Of a DNA stretch of 64,000 bases, positions 56,038 to 61,715 are shown piece after piece. Below the pieces are notes generated by a model. The model was not told the origin of the DNA and made no database searches. It was given only the letters and a program-made list of their open reading frames with translations. Within the stretch, counting starts at the first letter, position 1; every line of letters begins with the position of its first letter. The position numbers and the translations under genes are program-made. Origin of the DNA: Escherichia coli (lineage in GTDB: Bacteria > Pseudomonadota > Gammaproteobacteria > Enterobacterales > Enterobacteriaceae); assembly GCF_001677475.2 (NCBI RefSeq), contig NZ_CP015229.1; one strand, written 5' to 3'.

Positions 56038-59000
56038 ATGAACAAGGAATTACCGTGGCTGGCGGATAACGCACAACTGGAACTGAAATATAAAAAAGGC
56101 AAAACGCCGCTCAGCCATCGCAGTTGGCCGGGCGAACCGGTGCCTGTTATTACTGAAAGCCTCATCCAGACACTGGGTGATGAATTGCTACAAAAAGCTG
56201 AGAAGAAAAAAAACATTATCTGGCGTTATGAAAATTTTTCACTGGAGTAGCAGTCCGCCATCACGGAAGCCATCAACTTGATTGGCGAACACAAACCCTC
56301 AATTCCGGCACGGACAATGGCGGCGCTAGTCTGTATCGCGCAAAAGGACAGCCAACAGTTGCTCGACGAAATCGTCCAACAAGAGGGACTGGAATATGCG
56401 ACTGAGGTGGTGATTGCACGCCAGTTTATTACACGATGTTATGAGAGTGATCCTCTGCTAGTGACATTGCAGTATCAGAACGAGGACTATGGCTATGGTT
56501 ATCGCTCAGAAACCTATAACGAATTCGATCTGCGACTGCGTAAGCATCTCTCTCTGGCAGAGGAAAGCTGCTGGCAGCGTTGCGCCGACAAACTCATTGC
56601 CGCACTGCCAGGAATACCCAAAATTCGCCGTCCTTTTATTGCGCTGGTCCTCCCGGAAAAACCAGAAATAGCCAATGAGTTGGTAGGTCTTGAATGCCCG
56701 CGGACTCATTTTCATTCTAAGGAGTGGTTAAAAGCTGTTGCTACTGCCCCCCGGGCGGTGAGAAAACTCGAACACTACTGGAGCCAGGATATATTTAGCG
56801 ATCGCGAAGCCAGCTACATGTCGCATGAAAACCGCTTCGGGTACGCGGCCTGCGCCGCCCTTTTGCGTGAACAAGGACTGGCAGCCGTTCCGCGCCTGGC
56901 AATGTATGCCCATAGAGAGGATTGCGGAAGCCTGCTGGTACAAATTAACCATCCGCAGGTCATCCGCACCTTGCTGTTAGTTGCTGATAAAAACAAACCC
57001 AGCCTGCAACGTGTGGCTAAATACAGTAAAAATTTCCCCCACGCGACACTCGCCGCACTGGCAGAACTGCTGGCGCTAAAAGAACCACCTGCGCGTCCTG
57101 GTTATCCAATCATCGAAGACAAAAAGCTGCCTGCACAGCAAAAAGCACGTGATGAATACTGGCGTACGCTGTTACAAACGCTGATGGCATCGCAGCCACA
57201 ACTGGCAGAAGAGGTGATGCCGTGGTTAAGTACTCAAGCCCGGTCAGTGCTGAATAGTTATTTATCGGCACCGCCTAAAACGGTTATTGATAGCACCGAT
57301 AACAGCCAAATGCCTGAAATCCTCGTTTCACCACCGTGGCGTAGTAAGAAAAAAATGACAGTTCCACGTCTTGATTTGGCACCGTTCGAATTAACGCCGC
57401 AAGTTTACTGGAAACCAGGCGAACGAGAGAGGCTTGCCGCCACTGAGTCTGCCCGTTATTTCAGTACGGAATCTCTTGCGGAACGCATGGAACATAAAAG
57501 TGGACGAGTTGTACTACAGGAGCTGGGTTTTGGAGATGATGTATGGCTGTTTTTGAATTATATACTCCCCGGAAAACTGGATGCTGCACGCAATTCACTC
57601 ATTGTTCAGTGGCATTACTACCCAGGGCGGGTTGAAGAGATCATGAATGGCTGGAGCTCCCCGGAAGCTCAATTAGCAGAACAGGCGCTTCGCAGCGGTC
57701 ACGTAGAAGTGTTAATTAACATATGGGAAAATGACAGCTACTCACGCTATCGTCGGGAAAAGAGTATCTGGAACCTGTATTTATTGGCGCAGTTGCCGCG
57801 TGAGATGGCTTTGACTTTCTGGCTACGTATCAATGAGAAAAAGCATCTGTCTGCGGGTGAGGACTATTTTCTCAGTATCTTCGGATTGGATGCTCTACTA
57901 GGTCTGCTGTTGGCTTTTTCACATCGTCCAAAAGAAACATTTCCGTTAATTTTAAATTTCGGCGCAACCGAACTAGCCCTGCCCGTTGCCCGCGTCTGGC
58001 GACGTTTCGCGGCGCAGCGTGATCTGGCCCGCCAGTGGATTTTACAATGGCCGGAACATACGGCTACTGCACTTATCCCTCTTGTCTTCACCAAATCCAG
58101 CGATAATAGCGAAGCTGCATTACTTGCCCTGCGTTTACTTTACGAACAGGGACATGGCGAGTTACTGCAAACCGTGGCAAACCGCTGGCAGCGTACAGAT
58201 GTATGGCCTGCCCTGGAGCAATTACTTAAACAGAGTCCAATAGAGATTTACCCGACACGCATTCCAAAAGCCCCTGATTTCTGGCAGCCGGCAATGTGGT
58301 CCAGGCCGCGCCTTATCACGAATAATCAACCTGTTACTGATGACGCTCTGGAAATTATCGGCGAAATGCTGCGCTTTACCCAGGGCGGACGTTTTTATAG
58401 CGGACTGGAACAGCTGAAAACGTTTTGCCAGCCGCAAACGCTGGCAGCCTTTGCCTGGGATCTTTTCACCGCGTGGCAACAAGCTGGTGCTCCCGCAAAA
58501 GACAACTGGGCATTTCTGGCGTTAAGTCTCTTTGGCGACGAAAGCACGGCACGGGATCTGACGACACAGATCCTTGCCTGGCCACAGGAAGGCAAATCTG
58601 CCCGTGCTGTCAGTGGTCTGAATATACTTACTCAGATGAATAATGATATGGCACTGATACAGTTGCATCATATATCGCAACGGGCGAAATCCCGCCCCTT
58701 ACGTGATAACGCGGCGGAATTTCTTCAGGTGGTCGCAGAAAATCGCGGGCTAAGCCAGGAACAGTTAGCGGACAGATTAGTCCCAACACTGGGTCTTGAT
58801 GATCCGCAGGCGTTGATTTTTGATTTTGGTCCACGGCAATTTACCGTTCGCTTCGATGAAAACCTTAACCCGGTTATCTTTGATCAGCAAAACGTTCGCC
58901 AGAAAAGCGTTCCCCGGTTGCGCGCCGATGACGATCAACTGAAAGCACCCGAGGCACTGGCCCGACTAAAAGGGCTAAAAAAAGATGCCACTCAGGTGAG

Positions 59001-59670
59001 CAAAAACCTGCTCCCGCGTCTTGAAACTGCCCTGCGCACCACCCGACGCTGGTCGCTGGCAGATTTTCATTCTCTGTTTGTTAATCATCCCTTTACCCGC
59101 CTGGTTACTCGGCGATTGATATGGGGTGTTTATCCGGCAAATGAACCGCGTCGTTTACTCAACGCCTTTCGTGTGGCCGCTGAGGGGGAGTTCTGCAATG
59201 CGCAAGATGAGCCAATTGACCTGCCTGCCGATGCTCTGATTGGCATTGCCCACCCGTTAGAAATGGCAGCAGAAATGCGCAGTGAATTTGCACAGCTTTT
59301 TGCCGATTACGAAATTATGCCGCCTTTTCGCCAGTTGGCACGGCGCACAGTGCTGCTCACGCCTGACGAGTCAGCCAGTAATAGTTTGAATCGCTGGGAA
59401 GGTAAATCTGCTACCGTTGGGCAACTTATGGGAATGCGATACAAAGGCTGGGAGTCAGGCTATGAGAACGCATTTGTCTATGACCTGGGCGAGTACCGGC
59501 TGGTCCTTAAGTTTTCATCCGGTTTTAACCACTACAATGTTGATAGCAAAGCGCTAATGAGCTTCCGTTCTCTTCATGTATACCGTGAGAATAAATCTGT
59601 CACTTTTGCCGAACTTGATGTGTTTGATTTGAGTGAAGCGTTAAGCGCACCCGACGTTATTTTCCATTAA
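56038..59670 (+). pseudogene. yehI: yehI-like DUF4132 paralog 3 with in-frame amber codon at 56248..56250
   Basis: Track ORFs 56038..56250 and 56278..59670 are in the same frame, separated only by TAG (..ENFSLE*QSAITEAINLIGEH..). The full span is 1210 codons plus stop. Lacks the WGR N-terminal module of paralogs 1 and 2. Confidence 0.75.
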
Positions 59671-59730
59671 AACACAGCGGGCAGTGATGCGACTGCCCGT
59701 TATTAACACGACCTGCCACCGGGAAAAGCG

Positions 59731-60051
59731 ATGATCGTGCAAAAAGAGCTGGTCACTATTTACGATTATGAGGCCCCTGTACCTGAAGAGCCGTTTTCCT
59801 TCAGGCTTGAGATCCATAAACGCTCTGAATTATTTACAGGTTCCGTCTATCGACTGGAACGATTCCGGCTACGTCCAACATTTCATCAACGTGATCGAGA
59901 AGATGTCGACCCGCTAATAAATGATGCGTTGATTTATATAAGAGATGAGTTTATTGATGAGCGAAAATTACGAGGTGAATCACCTGAAACTGTAATAGCA
60001 ATTTTTAATCGCGAACTACAAAATATATTCAACCAACAAATAGAAAAATAG
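59731..60051 (+). CDS. yehK: Small protein YehK
   Basis: 106-aa ORF; position after yehI matches the gene order as I recall it. Confidence 0.7.
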   Translation: MIVQKELVTIYDYEAPVPEEPFSFRLEIHKRSELFTGSVYRLERFRLRPTFHQRDREDVDPLINDALIYIRDEFIDERKLRGESPETVIAIFNRELQNIFNQQIEK

Positions 60052-60104
60052 CTTTATTAAAGGGGGAAACGGTATTCCCCCTTAGATGCGTTTCAATTTG
60101 CCCG

Positions 60105-60194
60105 TTACTTCAACAAATCAATCAACCGTAACAGAGCCACTAATAGCTCCAGTACAGCAATGAGCACGGTTAACTTTTGTGTCAGCGTGTCCAT
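60105..60194 (-). CDS. Candidate 29-aa hydrophobic/amphipathic peptide (MDTLTQKLTVLIAVLELLVALLRLIDLLK)
   Basis: Minus-strand ATG at 60194 preceded by AAGGAG with 5-nt spacing; 29 codons then TAA. Not in the track (below 60 aa). Composition resembles small membrane peptides and type I toxins. Confidence 0.4.
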   Translation of the reverse strand: MDTLTQKLTVLIAVLELLVALLRLIDLLK

Positions 60195-60490
60195 CCGCTC
60201 TCCTTATTAAGGAGCGCAATACCAGCACCTTACCCTTACACTGCCTGTCGATACTGGTTTACGTATGTTGGACCACGATGTTGCACTCCGGATCAGGGCA
60301 CCACCTGCAGCACCACCCGTCCGGTAGCCAGGACTTAAAATTGGTCCGATCCGGCGCAACGTCCCAACCGTCTGGATTATAAATCTCATTATCTTAATTG
60401 CAACGGGGTCCACCGATGGTTATAATTCGTTCGTTGGAACACGATGTTGCACAGGCTGCGGTGTTGGGCCTGAAAATAGTAAATAAAAGA

Positions 60491-60516
60491 ACCTGCCTCA
60501 CCAGCAGGTTTTTTTA
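60491..60516 (+). terminator. Rho-independent terminator on the plus strand upstream of yehL
   Basis: Stem acctgc/gcaggt with 7-nt loop followed by ttttttt (60510-60516); implies a plus-strand transcript ending here with no annotated gene. Confidence 0.6.
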
Positions 60517-60626
60517 TTTACTGTGATCTGCTTTCCAGATATTTTTCGCTCAAACAACTAATGCGCAAAACATTTATTGCGCGTAAAATATCGTTTATTT
60601 CATTAATACATTTCAGGGATGAATAT

Positions 60627-61715
60627 ATGTCACCGCAGAATAATCATCTGCAGCGTCCGCCTGCCGCTGTGTTATACGCCGATGAACTGGCAAAATTAAA
60701 ACAAAATGATAACGCACCTTGCCCGCCAGGTTGGCAGTTAAGTTTGCCTGCGGCCCGCGCTTTTATCCTTGGCGACGAAGCGCAAAATATTAGCCGTAAA
60801 GTCGTGATCAGTCCCTCCGCTGTCGAACGCATGTTAGTCACTCTCGCTACCGGGCGCGGTTTGATGTTGGTGGGGGAACCTGGCACCGCAAAATCTCTCC
60901 TGTCTGAATTACTGGCGACCGCTATTAGCGGCGATGCCGGGTTAACCATCCAGGGCGGCGCATCTACCACCGAAGATCAAATCAAGTACGGCTGGAACTA
61001 CGCCCTGCTTATCAACCATGGTCCGTCAACGGAAGCGCTGGTCCCTGCCCCGCTTTACCAGGGAATGCGCGACGGCAAAATTGTCCGTTTTGAAGAGATA
61101 ACGCGTACACCGCTGGAAGTACAAGACTGTCTGTTAGGTATGCTTTCTGACAGGGTAATGACGGTGCCGGAACTCACTGGTGAAGCCAGTCAGCTCTATG
61201 CGCGGGAAGGCTTTAATATTATTGCCACTGCCAATACCCGCGATCGCGGCGTCAATGAAATGAGTGCTGCGCTAAAGCGTCGCTTCGATTTTGAAACTGT
61301 CTTTCCGATTATGGATTTCGCCCAGGAGCTGGAACTGGTCGCCAGTGCTTCCGCGCGTTTGCTGGCCCATAGCGGTATTCCGCATAAAGTGCCTGACGCG
61401 GTACTGGAATTACTGGTGCGCACGTTCCGCGATCTGCGTGCCAACGGCGAAAAGAAAACGTCAATGGATACACTGACAGCGATTATGTCCACCGCTGAAG
61501 CCGTTAACGTGGCCCATGCTGTGGGTGTCCGCGCCTGGTTTTTAGCGAATCGCGCGGGGGAGCCTGCCGACCTGGTGGATTGTATTGCCGGAACCATCGT
61601 CAAAGATAACGAAGAAGATCGCGCGCGTCTGCGCCGTTACTTCGAACAGCGCGTCGCCACACATAAAGAAGCTCACTGGCAGGCTTATTATCAAGCTCGC
61701 CACCGCCTGCCGTGA
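60627..61715 (+). CDS. yehL: AAA+ ATPase (MoxR-like)
   Basis: Track ORF 60561..61715; ATG at 60627 gives 362 aa starting MSPQNNHLQRPPAAVLYADELAKL; Walker A LVGEPGTAKS. Confidence 0.8.
   Translation: MSPQNNHLQRPPAAVLYADELAKLKQNDNAPCPPGWQLSLPAARAFILGDEAQNISRKVVISPSAVERMLVTLATGRGLMLVGEPGTAKSLLSELLATAISGDAGLTIQGGASTTEDQIKYGWNYALLINHGPSTEALVPAPLYQGMRDGKIVRFEEITRTPLEVQDCLLGMLSDRVMTVPELTGEASQLYAREGFNIIATANTRDRGVNEMSAALKRRFDFETVFPIMDFAQELELVASASARLLAHSGIPHKVPDAVLELLVRTFRDLRANGEKKTSMDTLTAIMSTAEAVNVAHAVGVRAWFLANRAGEPADLVDCIAGTIVKDNEEDRARLRRYFEQRVATHKEAHWQAYYQARHRLP

What the first reader, a model, noticed from the sequence alone, without database searches (positions are those of the whole stretch)
60105..60194. 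Unlisted 29-aa hydrophobic peptide ORF with strong Shine-Dalgarno between yehK and yehL
Minus-strand ORF MDTLTQKLTVLIAVLELLVALLRLIDLLK has AAGGAG 5 nt upstream of its ATG and ends at a hairpin shared with convergent yehK. Size and composition resemble type I toxins (TisB/DinQ-like) and small membrane proteins. I do not recognise it as a named E. coli small protein.
Basis: seen in the sequence. Interest (0 to 1): 0.55.

Follow-up and report, generated by a model that had tools for sequence, protein, structure and literature searches.

The report
Known ZorO toxin, zor-orz locus
The 29-residue hydrophobic peptide gene between yehK and yehL is real, but it is the already characterised membrane toxin ZorO of the E. 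coli zor-orz type I toxin-antitoxin system, and its small-RNA antitoxin gene lies next to it, so the finding is correct but not new.

Summary
The ORF at 60105-60194 (-) exists exactly as described: AAGGAG, a 5-nt spacer, ATG and 29 codons. Its product, MDTLTQKLTVLIAVLELLVALLRLIDLLK, is identical to the published ZorO toxin of E. coli O157:H7 (UniProt ZORO_ECO57, formerly z3289).

An OrzO-P antitoxin sRNA (Rfam RF02083, 101 bits against a gathering score of 60) is transcribed divergently at about 60433-60516 (+).

The other published features of the system are also present:
- TTGCAA/TATAAT promoters.
- A 174-nt 5' UTR with the ribosome-binding site at +164 to +169, held in a CTCCTT/AAGGAG hairpin.
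- The "exposed after processing" (EAP) region with its GGAGTG motif.
- A 19-of-20-nt match between the Orz 5' end and +83 to +102 of the zor mRNA.

By nucleotide sequence the module is the zorP/orzP type (96.6% identical to EDL933 zorP/orzP, 88.1% to zorO/orzO), yet it encodes the ZorO peptide variant.

About 63% of complete E. coli genomes carry the toxin part. K-12 keeps only orz. RefSeq annotation omits the ORF, which explains "unlisted".

Interest is low.

The parts
60105..60194 (-). zor toxin ORF, 29 codons plus stop. The peptide is identical to ZorO (Thr3 variant).
   Evidence: Identical to the ZorO peptide sequence in PMC6669753 and to UniProt ZORO_ECO57.
60200..60214 (-). Ribosome-binding-site hairpin: anti-SD CTCCTT (60214..60209), loop AAT, SD AAGGAG (60205..60200). 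The SD is at +164..+169 of the mRNA.
   Evidence: Sequence. [quoted passage not shown] The position matches the published RBS at +164 to +169 and the published RBS sequestration (PMC5397157).
60195..60368 (-). zor 5' UTR, 174 nt. The transcription start at G60368 is inferred from the -10 box and from the published UTR length.
   Evidence: Promoter scan. The 174-nt UTR is published. The UTR coordinates reproduce the published RBS and EAP positions.
60267..60296 (-). EAP ('exposed after processing') region, +73..+102. It contains the GGAGTG motif (60289..60284) and the Orz target (+83..+102 = 60286..60267).
   Evidence: The EAP definition is in PMC5397157. The GGAGTG/AG motif is in PMC11264685.
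60376..60403 (-). zor promoter: -35 TTGCAA (60403..60398), 16-nt spacer, -10 TATAAT (60381..60376).
   Evidence: These are the same hexamers reported as conserved in over 99% of loci (PMC11264685, Table 3).
60398..60426 (+). orz promoter: -35 TTGCAA (60398..60403, the same palindromic hexamer as the zor -35), 17-nt spacer, -10 TATAAT (60421..60426).
60433..60516 (+). orz antitoxin sRNA, OrzP type. The first 20 nt, GUUGGAACACGAUGUUGCAC, pair with the zor mRNA. A Rho-independent terminator lies at 60484..60516.
   Evidence: Rfam RF02083 OrzO-P at 60440..60515, 101.3 bits (gathering score 60), E = 5e-17. Fold. Inverted repeat plus T-run. The start at G60433 is inferred from the -10 box and from the published statement that the first 18 nt of OrzO form the pairing region.
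60060..60083 (-). 3' hairpin of the zor transcript (AAGGGGGAA / loop / TTCCCCCTT). It is the probable transcript end or stabiliser and may also stop yehK read-through.
   Evidence: It is present after both zor copies in EDL933-type genomes and absent in K-12. The terminator scan did not call it, so the function is inferred.

Best explanation
This is a single-copy zor-orz type I toxin-antitoxin module at its usual chromosomal site between yehK and yehL.

The minus-strand gene is transcribed from a TTGCAA/TATAAT promoter as an mRNA of about 310 nt with a 174-nt 5' UTR. It encodes the 29-residue alpha-helical inner-membrane peptide ZorO. When overproduced, ZorO depolarises the membrane, lowers ATP and stops growth.

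Translation is held down in two ways:
1. The Shine-Dalgarno sequence is locked in a short CTCCTT/AAGGAG hairpin. The mRNA's own 5' end also pairs with an upstream region (the EAP region). Efficient translation therefore needs removal of the first 28 nt, which exposes the EAP region as a probable ribosome standby site.
2. The divergently transcribed Orz sRNA pairs through its first 20 nt with the 3' part of that EAP region (+83 to +102). This blocks standby binding and triggers RNase III-dependent decay.

Shown here: identity of the peptide, the presence and score of the sRNA, the promoters, the geometry, the pairing potential and its covariation, and ORF conservation.

Taken from the literature on EDL933 zorO-orzO: toxicity, membrane localisation, processing, the standby mechanism and RNase III dependence.

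Inferred: that this P-type pair behaves the same way in this strain.
For: - The peptide is identical to the ZorO sequence printed in PMC6669753 and to the entry named 'Small toxic protein ZorO'.
- Rfam OrzO-P hit at 101.3 bits against a gathering score of 60, divergent from the ORF.
- Both promoters are TTGCAA/TATAAT, as in PMC11264685 Table 3.
- Placing +1 at 60368 puts the SD at +164..+169 and the Orz target at +83..+102. These are the positions published for zorO.
- The SD is paired in the predicted folds of both mRNA forms, and the 5' end pairs with the EAP region only in the full-length form.
- The Orz 5' end and the target form 6+13 bp with one internal mismatch, dG -34 kcal/mol. This exceeds the published requirement of 17 discontinuous bp.
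- Three different pairing-region types in 12 modules always match their own partner, through compensatory changes. Cross pairs are weaker, at -19 to -24 kcal/mol.
- The module is 96.6% identical to EDL933 zorP/orzP and sits in the same yehK-yehL gap.
- The ORF is intact in 12 of 12 instances, including E. whittamii and two unnamed Escherichia species. Five variable codons are synonymous and two are conservative replacements, T3S and Q6R.
- The toxin part is present in 3392 of 5426 complete E. coli genomes.
Against: - Nothing in the sequence argues against it.
- In the papers I read, the experiments were done on the O-type pair of EDL933. The window carries the P-type UTR and sRNA, for which I found no direct rescue experiment in those texts.
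- The transcription starts, the 28-nt processing and the 3' end are not measured for this strain.
- The 3' hairpin lacks a canonical U-tail.
- The physiological role of the locus at native expression levels is unsettled in the literature. A non-toxic ZorO variant still improved growth in kanamycin (PMC9860968).
Confidence: 0.96

Rival explanations
1. The ORF is a chance reading frame inside a non-coding or decaying remnant. The locus would then be a dead relic in this strain, as the orz-only remnant in K-12 is for the toxin.
For: Short ORFs are abundant by chance: 39 ORFs of at least 20 aa in 2.5 kb. Part of the species has lost the toxin half. Neighbouring yehL and yehM are pseudogenes in the closest relative, M217.
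Against: All functional elements are intact and identical to or consensus with active loci: both promoters, the SD, 29 codons and the pairing region. The ORF is intact in 12 of 12 instances with mainly synonymous variation. The identical peptide is toxic and membrane-localised in experiments.
Confidence: 0.02
2. The peptide is primarily a physiological small membrane protein that modulates membrane potential or aminoglycoside uptake, not a toxin. On this view the toxicity is an overexpression artefact and Orz is simply its post-transcriptional regulator.
For: Multi-copy zor-orz or zorO-orzO with native regulation improves growth in kanamycin and gentamicin, and a non-toxic variant retained the benefit (PMC9860968; PMC11264685). 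Orphan orz is conserved and expressed in K-12, which suggests roles beyond toxin repression.
Against: This is a difference of emphasis rather than of identity, because the gene, the RNA and the regulation are the same. A single chromosomal copy gave no such benefit according to the section heading in PMC9860968. Nothing in the window discriminates between the two views.
Confidence: 0.25
3. The module is mismatched, with a ZorO-type toxin beside an OrzP-type antitoxin left by recombination between tandem copies. The antitoxin would then fail to control the toxin, just as OrzP fails to repress zorO in EDL933.
For: The peptide has the ZorO residue Thr3, while the sRNA is the OrzP type. The ORF and its 3' hairpin show a mosaic of copy-1-like and copy-2-like bases.
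Against: Specificity lies in the 5' UTR target, not in the coding sequence. The window's target is the P type and is identical to that of EDL933 zorP. The cognate pairing is intact at 19 of 20 nt, -34 kcal/mol. ZorO is reported as the dominant peptide across all locus types, at 72.5% of ORFs.
Confidence: 0.01

Closest known systems
zorO-orzO / zorP-orzP of E. coli O157:H7 EDL933 (z3289/z3290; Fozo et al. 2010; Wen et al. 2014, 2017; Rfam RF02083)
   Same: The peptide is identical to ZorO. The module sits in the same yehK-yehL location and has the same promoters, the same 174-nt UTR geometry, the same RBS hairpin, the same EAP/GGAGTG motif and the same divergent sRNA. The pairing region is identical to zorP/orzP, and the module is 96.6% identical to zorP/orzP overall.
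   Different: There is a single copy instead of a tandem pair. A P-type regulatory region is combined with the ZorO (Thr3) peptide rather than ZorP (Ser3). The roughly 60 nt between yehK and the zor hairpin in EDL933 are missing here. All of this lies within the variation catalogued in PMC11264685.
orz-only locus of E. coli K-12 (OrzPmg)
   Same: It lies in the same intergenic region, with the same orz gene (Rfam 99.9 bits) and the same shared promoter region.
   Different: K-12 lacks the zor ORF, the RBS, the Orz target and the 3' hairpin. Only the promoter-proximal part of the zor UTR remains. The window has the complete module.
[quoted passage not shown]
   Same: They share the architecture: a small hydrophobic membrane toxin, a long structured 5' UTR that needs 5' processing, a divergently encoded sRNA that pairs far upstream of the RBS, and a standby-site logic (as stated in PMC5397157).
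   Different: These are different families with different sequences, and zor has no SOS (LexA) control known to me. I did not test sequence homology to them here. PMC11264685 notes 71-74% similarity between a 113-nt zor UTR segment and a plasmid dinQ-like UTR.

Membership tests
zor-orz type I toxin-antitoxin family | A 29-aa hydrophobic Zor peptide (ZorO, or the variants ZorP with T3S and ZorQ with A20S) | tested here: met
   100% identical to the published ZorO sequence and to the UniProt-named ZorO entry.
zor-orz type I toxin-antitoxin family | A divergently transcribed Orz sRNA that matches the OrzO-P covariance model | tested here: met
   RF02083 at 60440..60515 (+), 101.3 bits against a gathering score of 60, E = 5e-17, full-length model match.
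zor-orz type I toxin-antitoxin family | The Orz 5' end is complementary to the zor 5' UTR within the EAP region, with at least 15 continuous bp or at least 17 bp with one internal mismatch | tested here: met
   6(1)13 pairing, 19 bp, at +83..+102, dG -34 kcal/mol. Orz and target co-vary across three locus types.
zor-orz type I toxin-antitoxin family | TTGCAA/TATAAT promoters, a 174-nt 5' UTR, the AAGGAG RBS at +164..+169 sequestered in a stem, and the GGAGTG/AG motif in the EAP region | tested here: met
   Promoter scan and coordinates and folds, compared with the published values. The transcription start itself is inferred, not measured.
zor-orz type I toxin-antitoxin family | Chromosomal position between yehK and yehL, as in EDL933 | tested here: met
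zor-orz type I toxin-antitoxin family | Overexpression of zor is toxic, and the cognate Orz rescues in an RNase III-dependent way | not testable with these tools
   Published for EDL933 zorO-orzO (PMC3919570). The identical peptide was shown to be toxic and membrane-localised (PMC6669753). It has not been measured for this allele or strain.
   In the evalue-mode scan of 59000..61500, the only matches that were not OrzO-P were sub-threshold matches to the Thr and Trp leaders, both overlapping the orz terminator. I ran no protein comparison with TisB, DinQ or ShoB. The resemblance is architectural.

The most novel reading that the evidence does not exclude
The most novel reading left open has two parts.

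First, the single palindromic TTGCAA at 60398-60403 is predicted to serve as the -35 element of both the zor and the orz promoters. RNA polymerase could then engage only one of them at a time, which would make toxin and antitoxin transcription mutually exclusive at the level of a single DNA molecule.

Second, at native single-copy level the module may act as a membrane-potential or aminoglycoside-tolerance modulator rather than as a toxin.

Neither reading is specific to this window, and both concern an already named system.
Probability: 0.12. Interest if true: 0.35.

Novelty: already known. Interest (0 to 1): 0.08.

Why it matters
There is little new biology here. The value is in closing the lead.

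The ORF is ZorO, a characterised type I toxin. Standard RefSeq annotation omits it, and NCBIfam has no model for it. A scan that relies on annotated genes will therefore keep rediscovering it.

The case shows that a reader working from sequence alone can recognise a type I toxin correctly. It also shows that the partner sRNA and the direct repeat encoding the antitoxin-target pairing should be looked for at once.

For annotation, the window should carry zor (60105-60194, -) and orz (about 60433-60516, +).

Tried and rejected
- NCBIfam scan of the peptide: no family, even at E = 10. This reflects the library, not the protein.
- Pfam could not be used, because 29 aa is below the 30-aa minimum.
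- The terminator scan did not call the 60060-60083 hairpin, so I keep its function as inferred.
- Sub-threshold Rfam matches to the Thr and Trp leaders at 60413-60518 are due to the orz terminator hairpin and were rejected: 26 and 22 bits against gathering scores of 55 and 41.
- A weak minus-strand OrzO-P match at 60485-60546 (25 bits) is the same palindromic terminator read backwards.
- I considered that a ZorO peptide with an OrzP sRNA might be a mismatched, uncontrolled module. I rejected this because the UTR target is also the P type.
- I considered that the hairpin is the yehK terminator. I rejected this as the primary reading because the hairpin duplicates with zor and is absent from K-12.

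Full report
**Observation**

The minus-strand ORF at 60105..60194 is there and translates to MDTLTQKLTVLIAVLELLVALLRLIDLLK. On the minus strand AAGGAG lies at 60205..60200, followed by the 5-nt spacer AGCGG and ATG at 60194. The ORF sits between yehK (59731..60051, +) and yehL (ORF from 60561; the RefSeq start corresponds to about 60627).

A 9-bp G+C-rich hairpin at 60060..60083 lies between the two convergent stop codons.

A 29-codon ORF is not remarkable in itself. These 2.5 kb contain 39 ORFs of at least 20 aa. The case rests on the evidence below.

**What it is**

An Rfam scan of 59000..61500 gave a full-length match to RF02083, the OrzO-P antitoxin RNA. The match is at 60440..60515 on the plus strand, scoring 101.3 bits against a gathering score of 60, E = 5e-17. 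This RNA is transcribed divergently from the ORF.

The literature on this RNA describes the zor-orz type I toxin-antitoxin locus of E. coli O157:H7 EDL933. [quoted passage not shown] PMC6669753 prints the sequence of the synthetic full-length ZorO peptide as MDTLTQKLTVLIAVLELLVALLRLIDLLK, which is identical to the ORF. An exact-sequence look-up returns the names 'Small toxic protein ZorO ... ZORO_ECO57' for this sequence and 'Small toxic protein ZorP' for the T3S variant.

**Anatomy in the window**

- **Promoters.** The promoter scan finds only two sigma-70-like sites in 59900..60700, and both fit the locus. One is on the minus strand: TTGCAA 60403..60398, 16-nt spacer, TATAAT 60381..60376. 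The other is on the plus strand: TTGCAA 60398..60403, 17-nt spacer, TATAAT 60421..60426. These are the hexamers reported as conserved in over 99% of zor/orz loci (PMC11264685, Table 3).
- **5' UTR.** Taking G60368 as +1 gives the published 174-nt 5' UTR. It places the SD at +164..+169, exactly the published RBS position.
[quoted passage not shown] This matches the published finding that the RBS is sequestered in both forms.
- **EAP region.** In the full-length fold the first 13 or so nt pair with +86..+102. In the delta-28 form that partner is gone. This is consistent with the published 'exposed after processing' (EAP) region at +73..+102. The EAP region here contains GGAGTG (60289..60284), the RBS-like motif shown by mutagenesis to contribute to toxicity.
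- **The sRNA.** Its inferred start is G60433, and it ends in a strong terminator at 60484..60516.

**Antitoxin-target pairing**

The only direct repeat in the region is 60262-60286 against 60428-60452. Because the two genes are divergent, this repeat is the signature of complementarity between the Orz 5' end and the zor UTR.

Orz nt 1-20 (GUUGGAACACGAUGUUGCAC) pair with +83..+102 of the mRNA (60286..60267) as 6 bp, one mismatch, then 13 bp, with dG -34 kcal/mol. This exceeds the experimentally derived requirement of 15 continuous bp or 17 bp with one internal mismatch.

I extracted 12 modules from the window, M217, a VTEC strain, EDL933, two divergent E. coli, E. whittamii and two unnamed Escherichia species. 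They contain three different pairing-region types. In every module the Orz 5' end and its own zor target have changed together. Non-cognate O/P combinations are much weaker, at -19 to -24 kcal/mol. This is comparative support for the interaction that does not depend on the papers.

**Which type**

From zor stop to orz terminator, the window module is 96.6% identical to EDL933 zorP/orzP and 88.1% identical to zorO/orzO. The pairing region is identical to the P type.

The peptide carries Thr3 as in ZorO, not Ser3 as in EDL933 ZorP. The difference is a single base at 60188. This is not a mismatched chimera, because specificity resides in the UTR, and the UTR is the P type.

PMC11264685 reports ZorO as the dominant peptide, at 72.5% of all zor ORFs, across the O, P and Q locus types. 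This combination is therefore within known variation.

**Conservation**

The full query 60040-60560 is covered at 80% or more in 3391 of 5426 complete E. coli genomes, and 5232 genomes have at least a partial match. The toxin half alone is present in 3392 genomes, with a median of two places per genome and up to six.

K-12-type genomes match only from 60335 onward. They keep the shared promoter region and an orz gene scoring 99.9 bits, but lack the ORF, the RBS, the Orz target and the 3' hairpin. This is the published 'orz-only' state, with the RNA named OrzPmg and detected by northern blot in MG1655.

An exact 22-nt pattern across the RBS hairpin was scanned against one genome per prokaryotic species. 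It hit only Escherichia: E. whittamii with two copies, and two unnamed species.

The ORF is 29 codons and intact in all 12 instances. The variable codons are five synonymous (codons 13, 17, 19, 21 and 22) and two conservative replacements, T3S and Q6R. The numbers are small, but the pattern is the one expected for a translated peptide under constraint.

**The hairpin**

In EDL933-type genomes each zor copy has its own copy of this hairpin, including zorP, which is not adjacent to yehK. K-12 has none. The hairpin therefore travels with zor.

It has no canonical U-tail in either direction and was not called by the scan. Its role as the transcript 3' end or stabiliser is therefore inferred.

**Mechanism**

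The following steps are published for EDL933 zorO-orzO, and I take them from the papers:
- Overproduction of ZorO causes growth stasis, membrane depolarisation, ATP loss and hydroxyl radicals.
- The peptide localises to the inner membrane.
- Residues 20-24 (ALLRL) are required for toxicity.
- OrzO rescues the cell, needs RNase III but not Hfq, and acts through its first 18 nt.
- The full-length UTR hinders translation, while the delta-28 form exposes the EAP region as a probable standby site.
- OrzO also blocks translation by binding there.

That the P-type pair of this window works in the same way is an inference from sequence identity of all the elements. I did not find a direct zorP/OrzP rescue experiment in the texts I read.

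**Comparison and novelty**

The module meets every sequence-testable defining feature of the zor-orz family. Only the experimental features cannot be tested here.

It shares the divergent-sRNA, long-UTR and standby-site architecture with tisB/istR-1, shoB/ohsC and dinQ/agrB.

The finding is already known. RefSeq/PGAP does not annotate the ORF and NCBIfam has no model, which explains why it looked unlisted. Interest is low.

The only points that might repay a closer look are two. One is the single palindromic -35 hexamer predicted to be used by both divergent promoters. The other is the unresolved native function of the locus. Both are properties of the known system, not of this window.

Noticed in passing
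window 60398-60403: The same 6 bp, TTGCAA (its own reverse complement), is the predicted -35 hexamer of both the zor (-) and the orz (+) promoters. The two divergent promoters are therefore back to back on a single shared element, which could make RNA polymerase binding mutually exclusive. PMC11264685 lists TTGCAA with identical conservation percentages for both genes. In the passages I searched I found no explicit statement that it is one shared hexamer.
   Followed up: partly
L002 1487-1792 (E. coli K-12 derivative MFDpir), compared with window 60335-60560: K-12 retains the orz gene (Rfam 99.9 bits), the shared promoter region and the first part of the zor 5' UTR. It lacks the toxin ORF, the RBS, the Orz target and the 3' hairpin. 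This is the published orz-only state (OrzPmg).
   Followed up: yes
window 60368-60356 and 60433-60450: The 5' end of the zor mRNA (GUUGGGACGUUGC) resembles the 5' end of Orz (GUUGGAACACGAUGUUGC). In the predicted full-length fold it pairs with the same EAP segment that Orz targets. The mRNA thus carries a cis mimic of its own antitoxin, which is removed by the 28-nt processing.
   Followed up: partly
L006 (E. coli DCE7), zor-orz module: A third pairing-region type was seen: Orz GUUGGGGCGCCAUGUUGCAU with a compensating zor target. It encodes the ZorO peptide, not A20S. It may correspond to the published zorQ/orzQ locus type, but I did not verify that.
   Followed up: no
window 59731-60051 (yehK) and 60052-60059: YehK is 106 aa here, against 105 aa in K-12 and EDL933. 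It is 93% identical to K-12 YehK and has one extra C-terminal Lys. The roughly 60 nt that separate yehK from the zorO hairpin in EDL933 are absent, so the zor hairpin starts only 8 nt after the yehK stop.
   Followed up: partly
L003 (E. coli M217, 99.4% identical to the window over the locus): In this closest relative, RefSeq marks yehL as frameshifted and yehM as having an internal stop. EDL933 and the VTEC strain also have a yehM pseudogene. In the window the yehL frame 60561..61715 is open. I did not check yehM in the window.
   Followed up: no
L007 12016-12647 (Escherichia whittamii): E. whittamii carries a tandem two-copy zor-orz locus, one O type and one P type. One of its peptides has Q6R, a variant not among the T3S and A20S variants named in the paper passages I read.
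   Followed up: no
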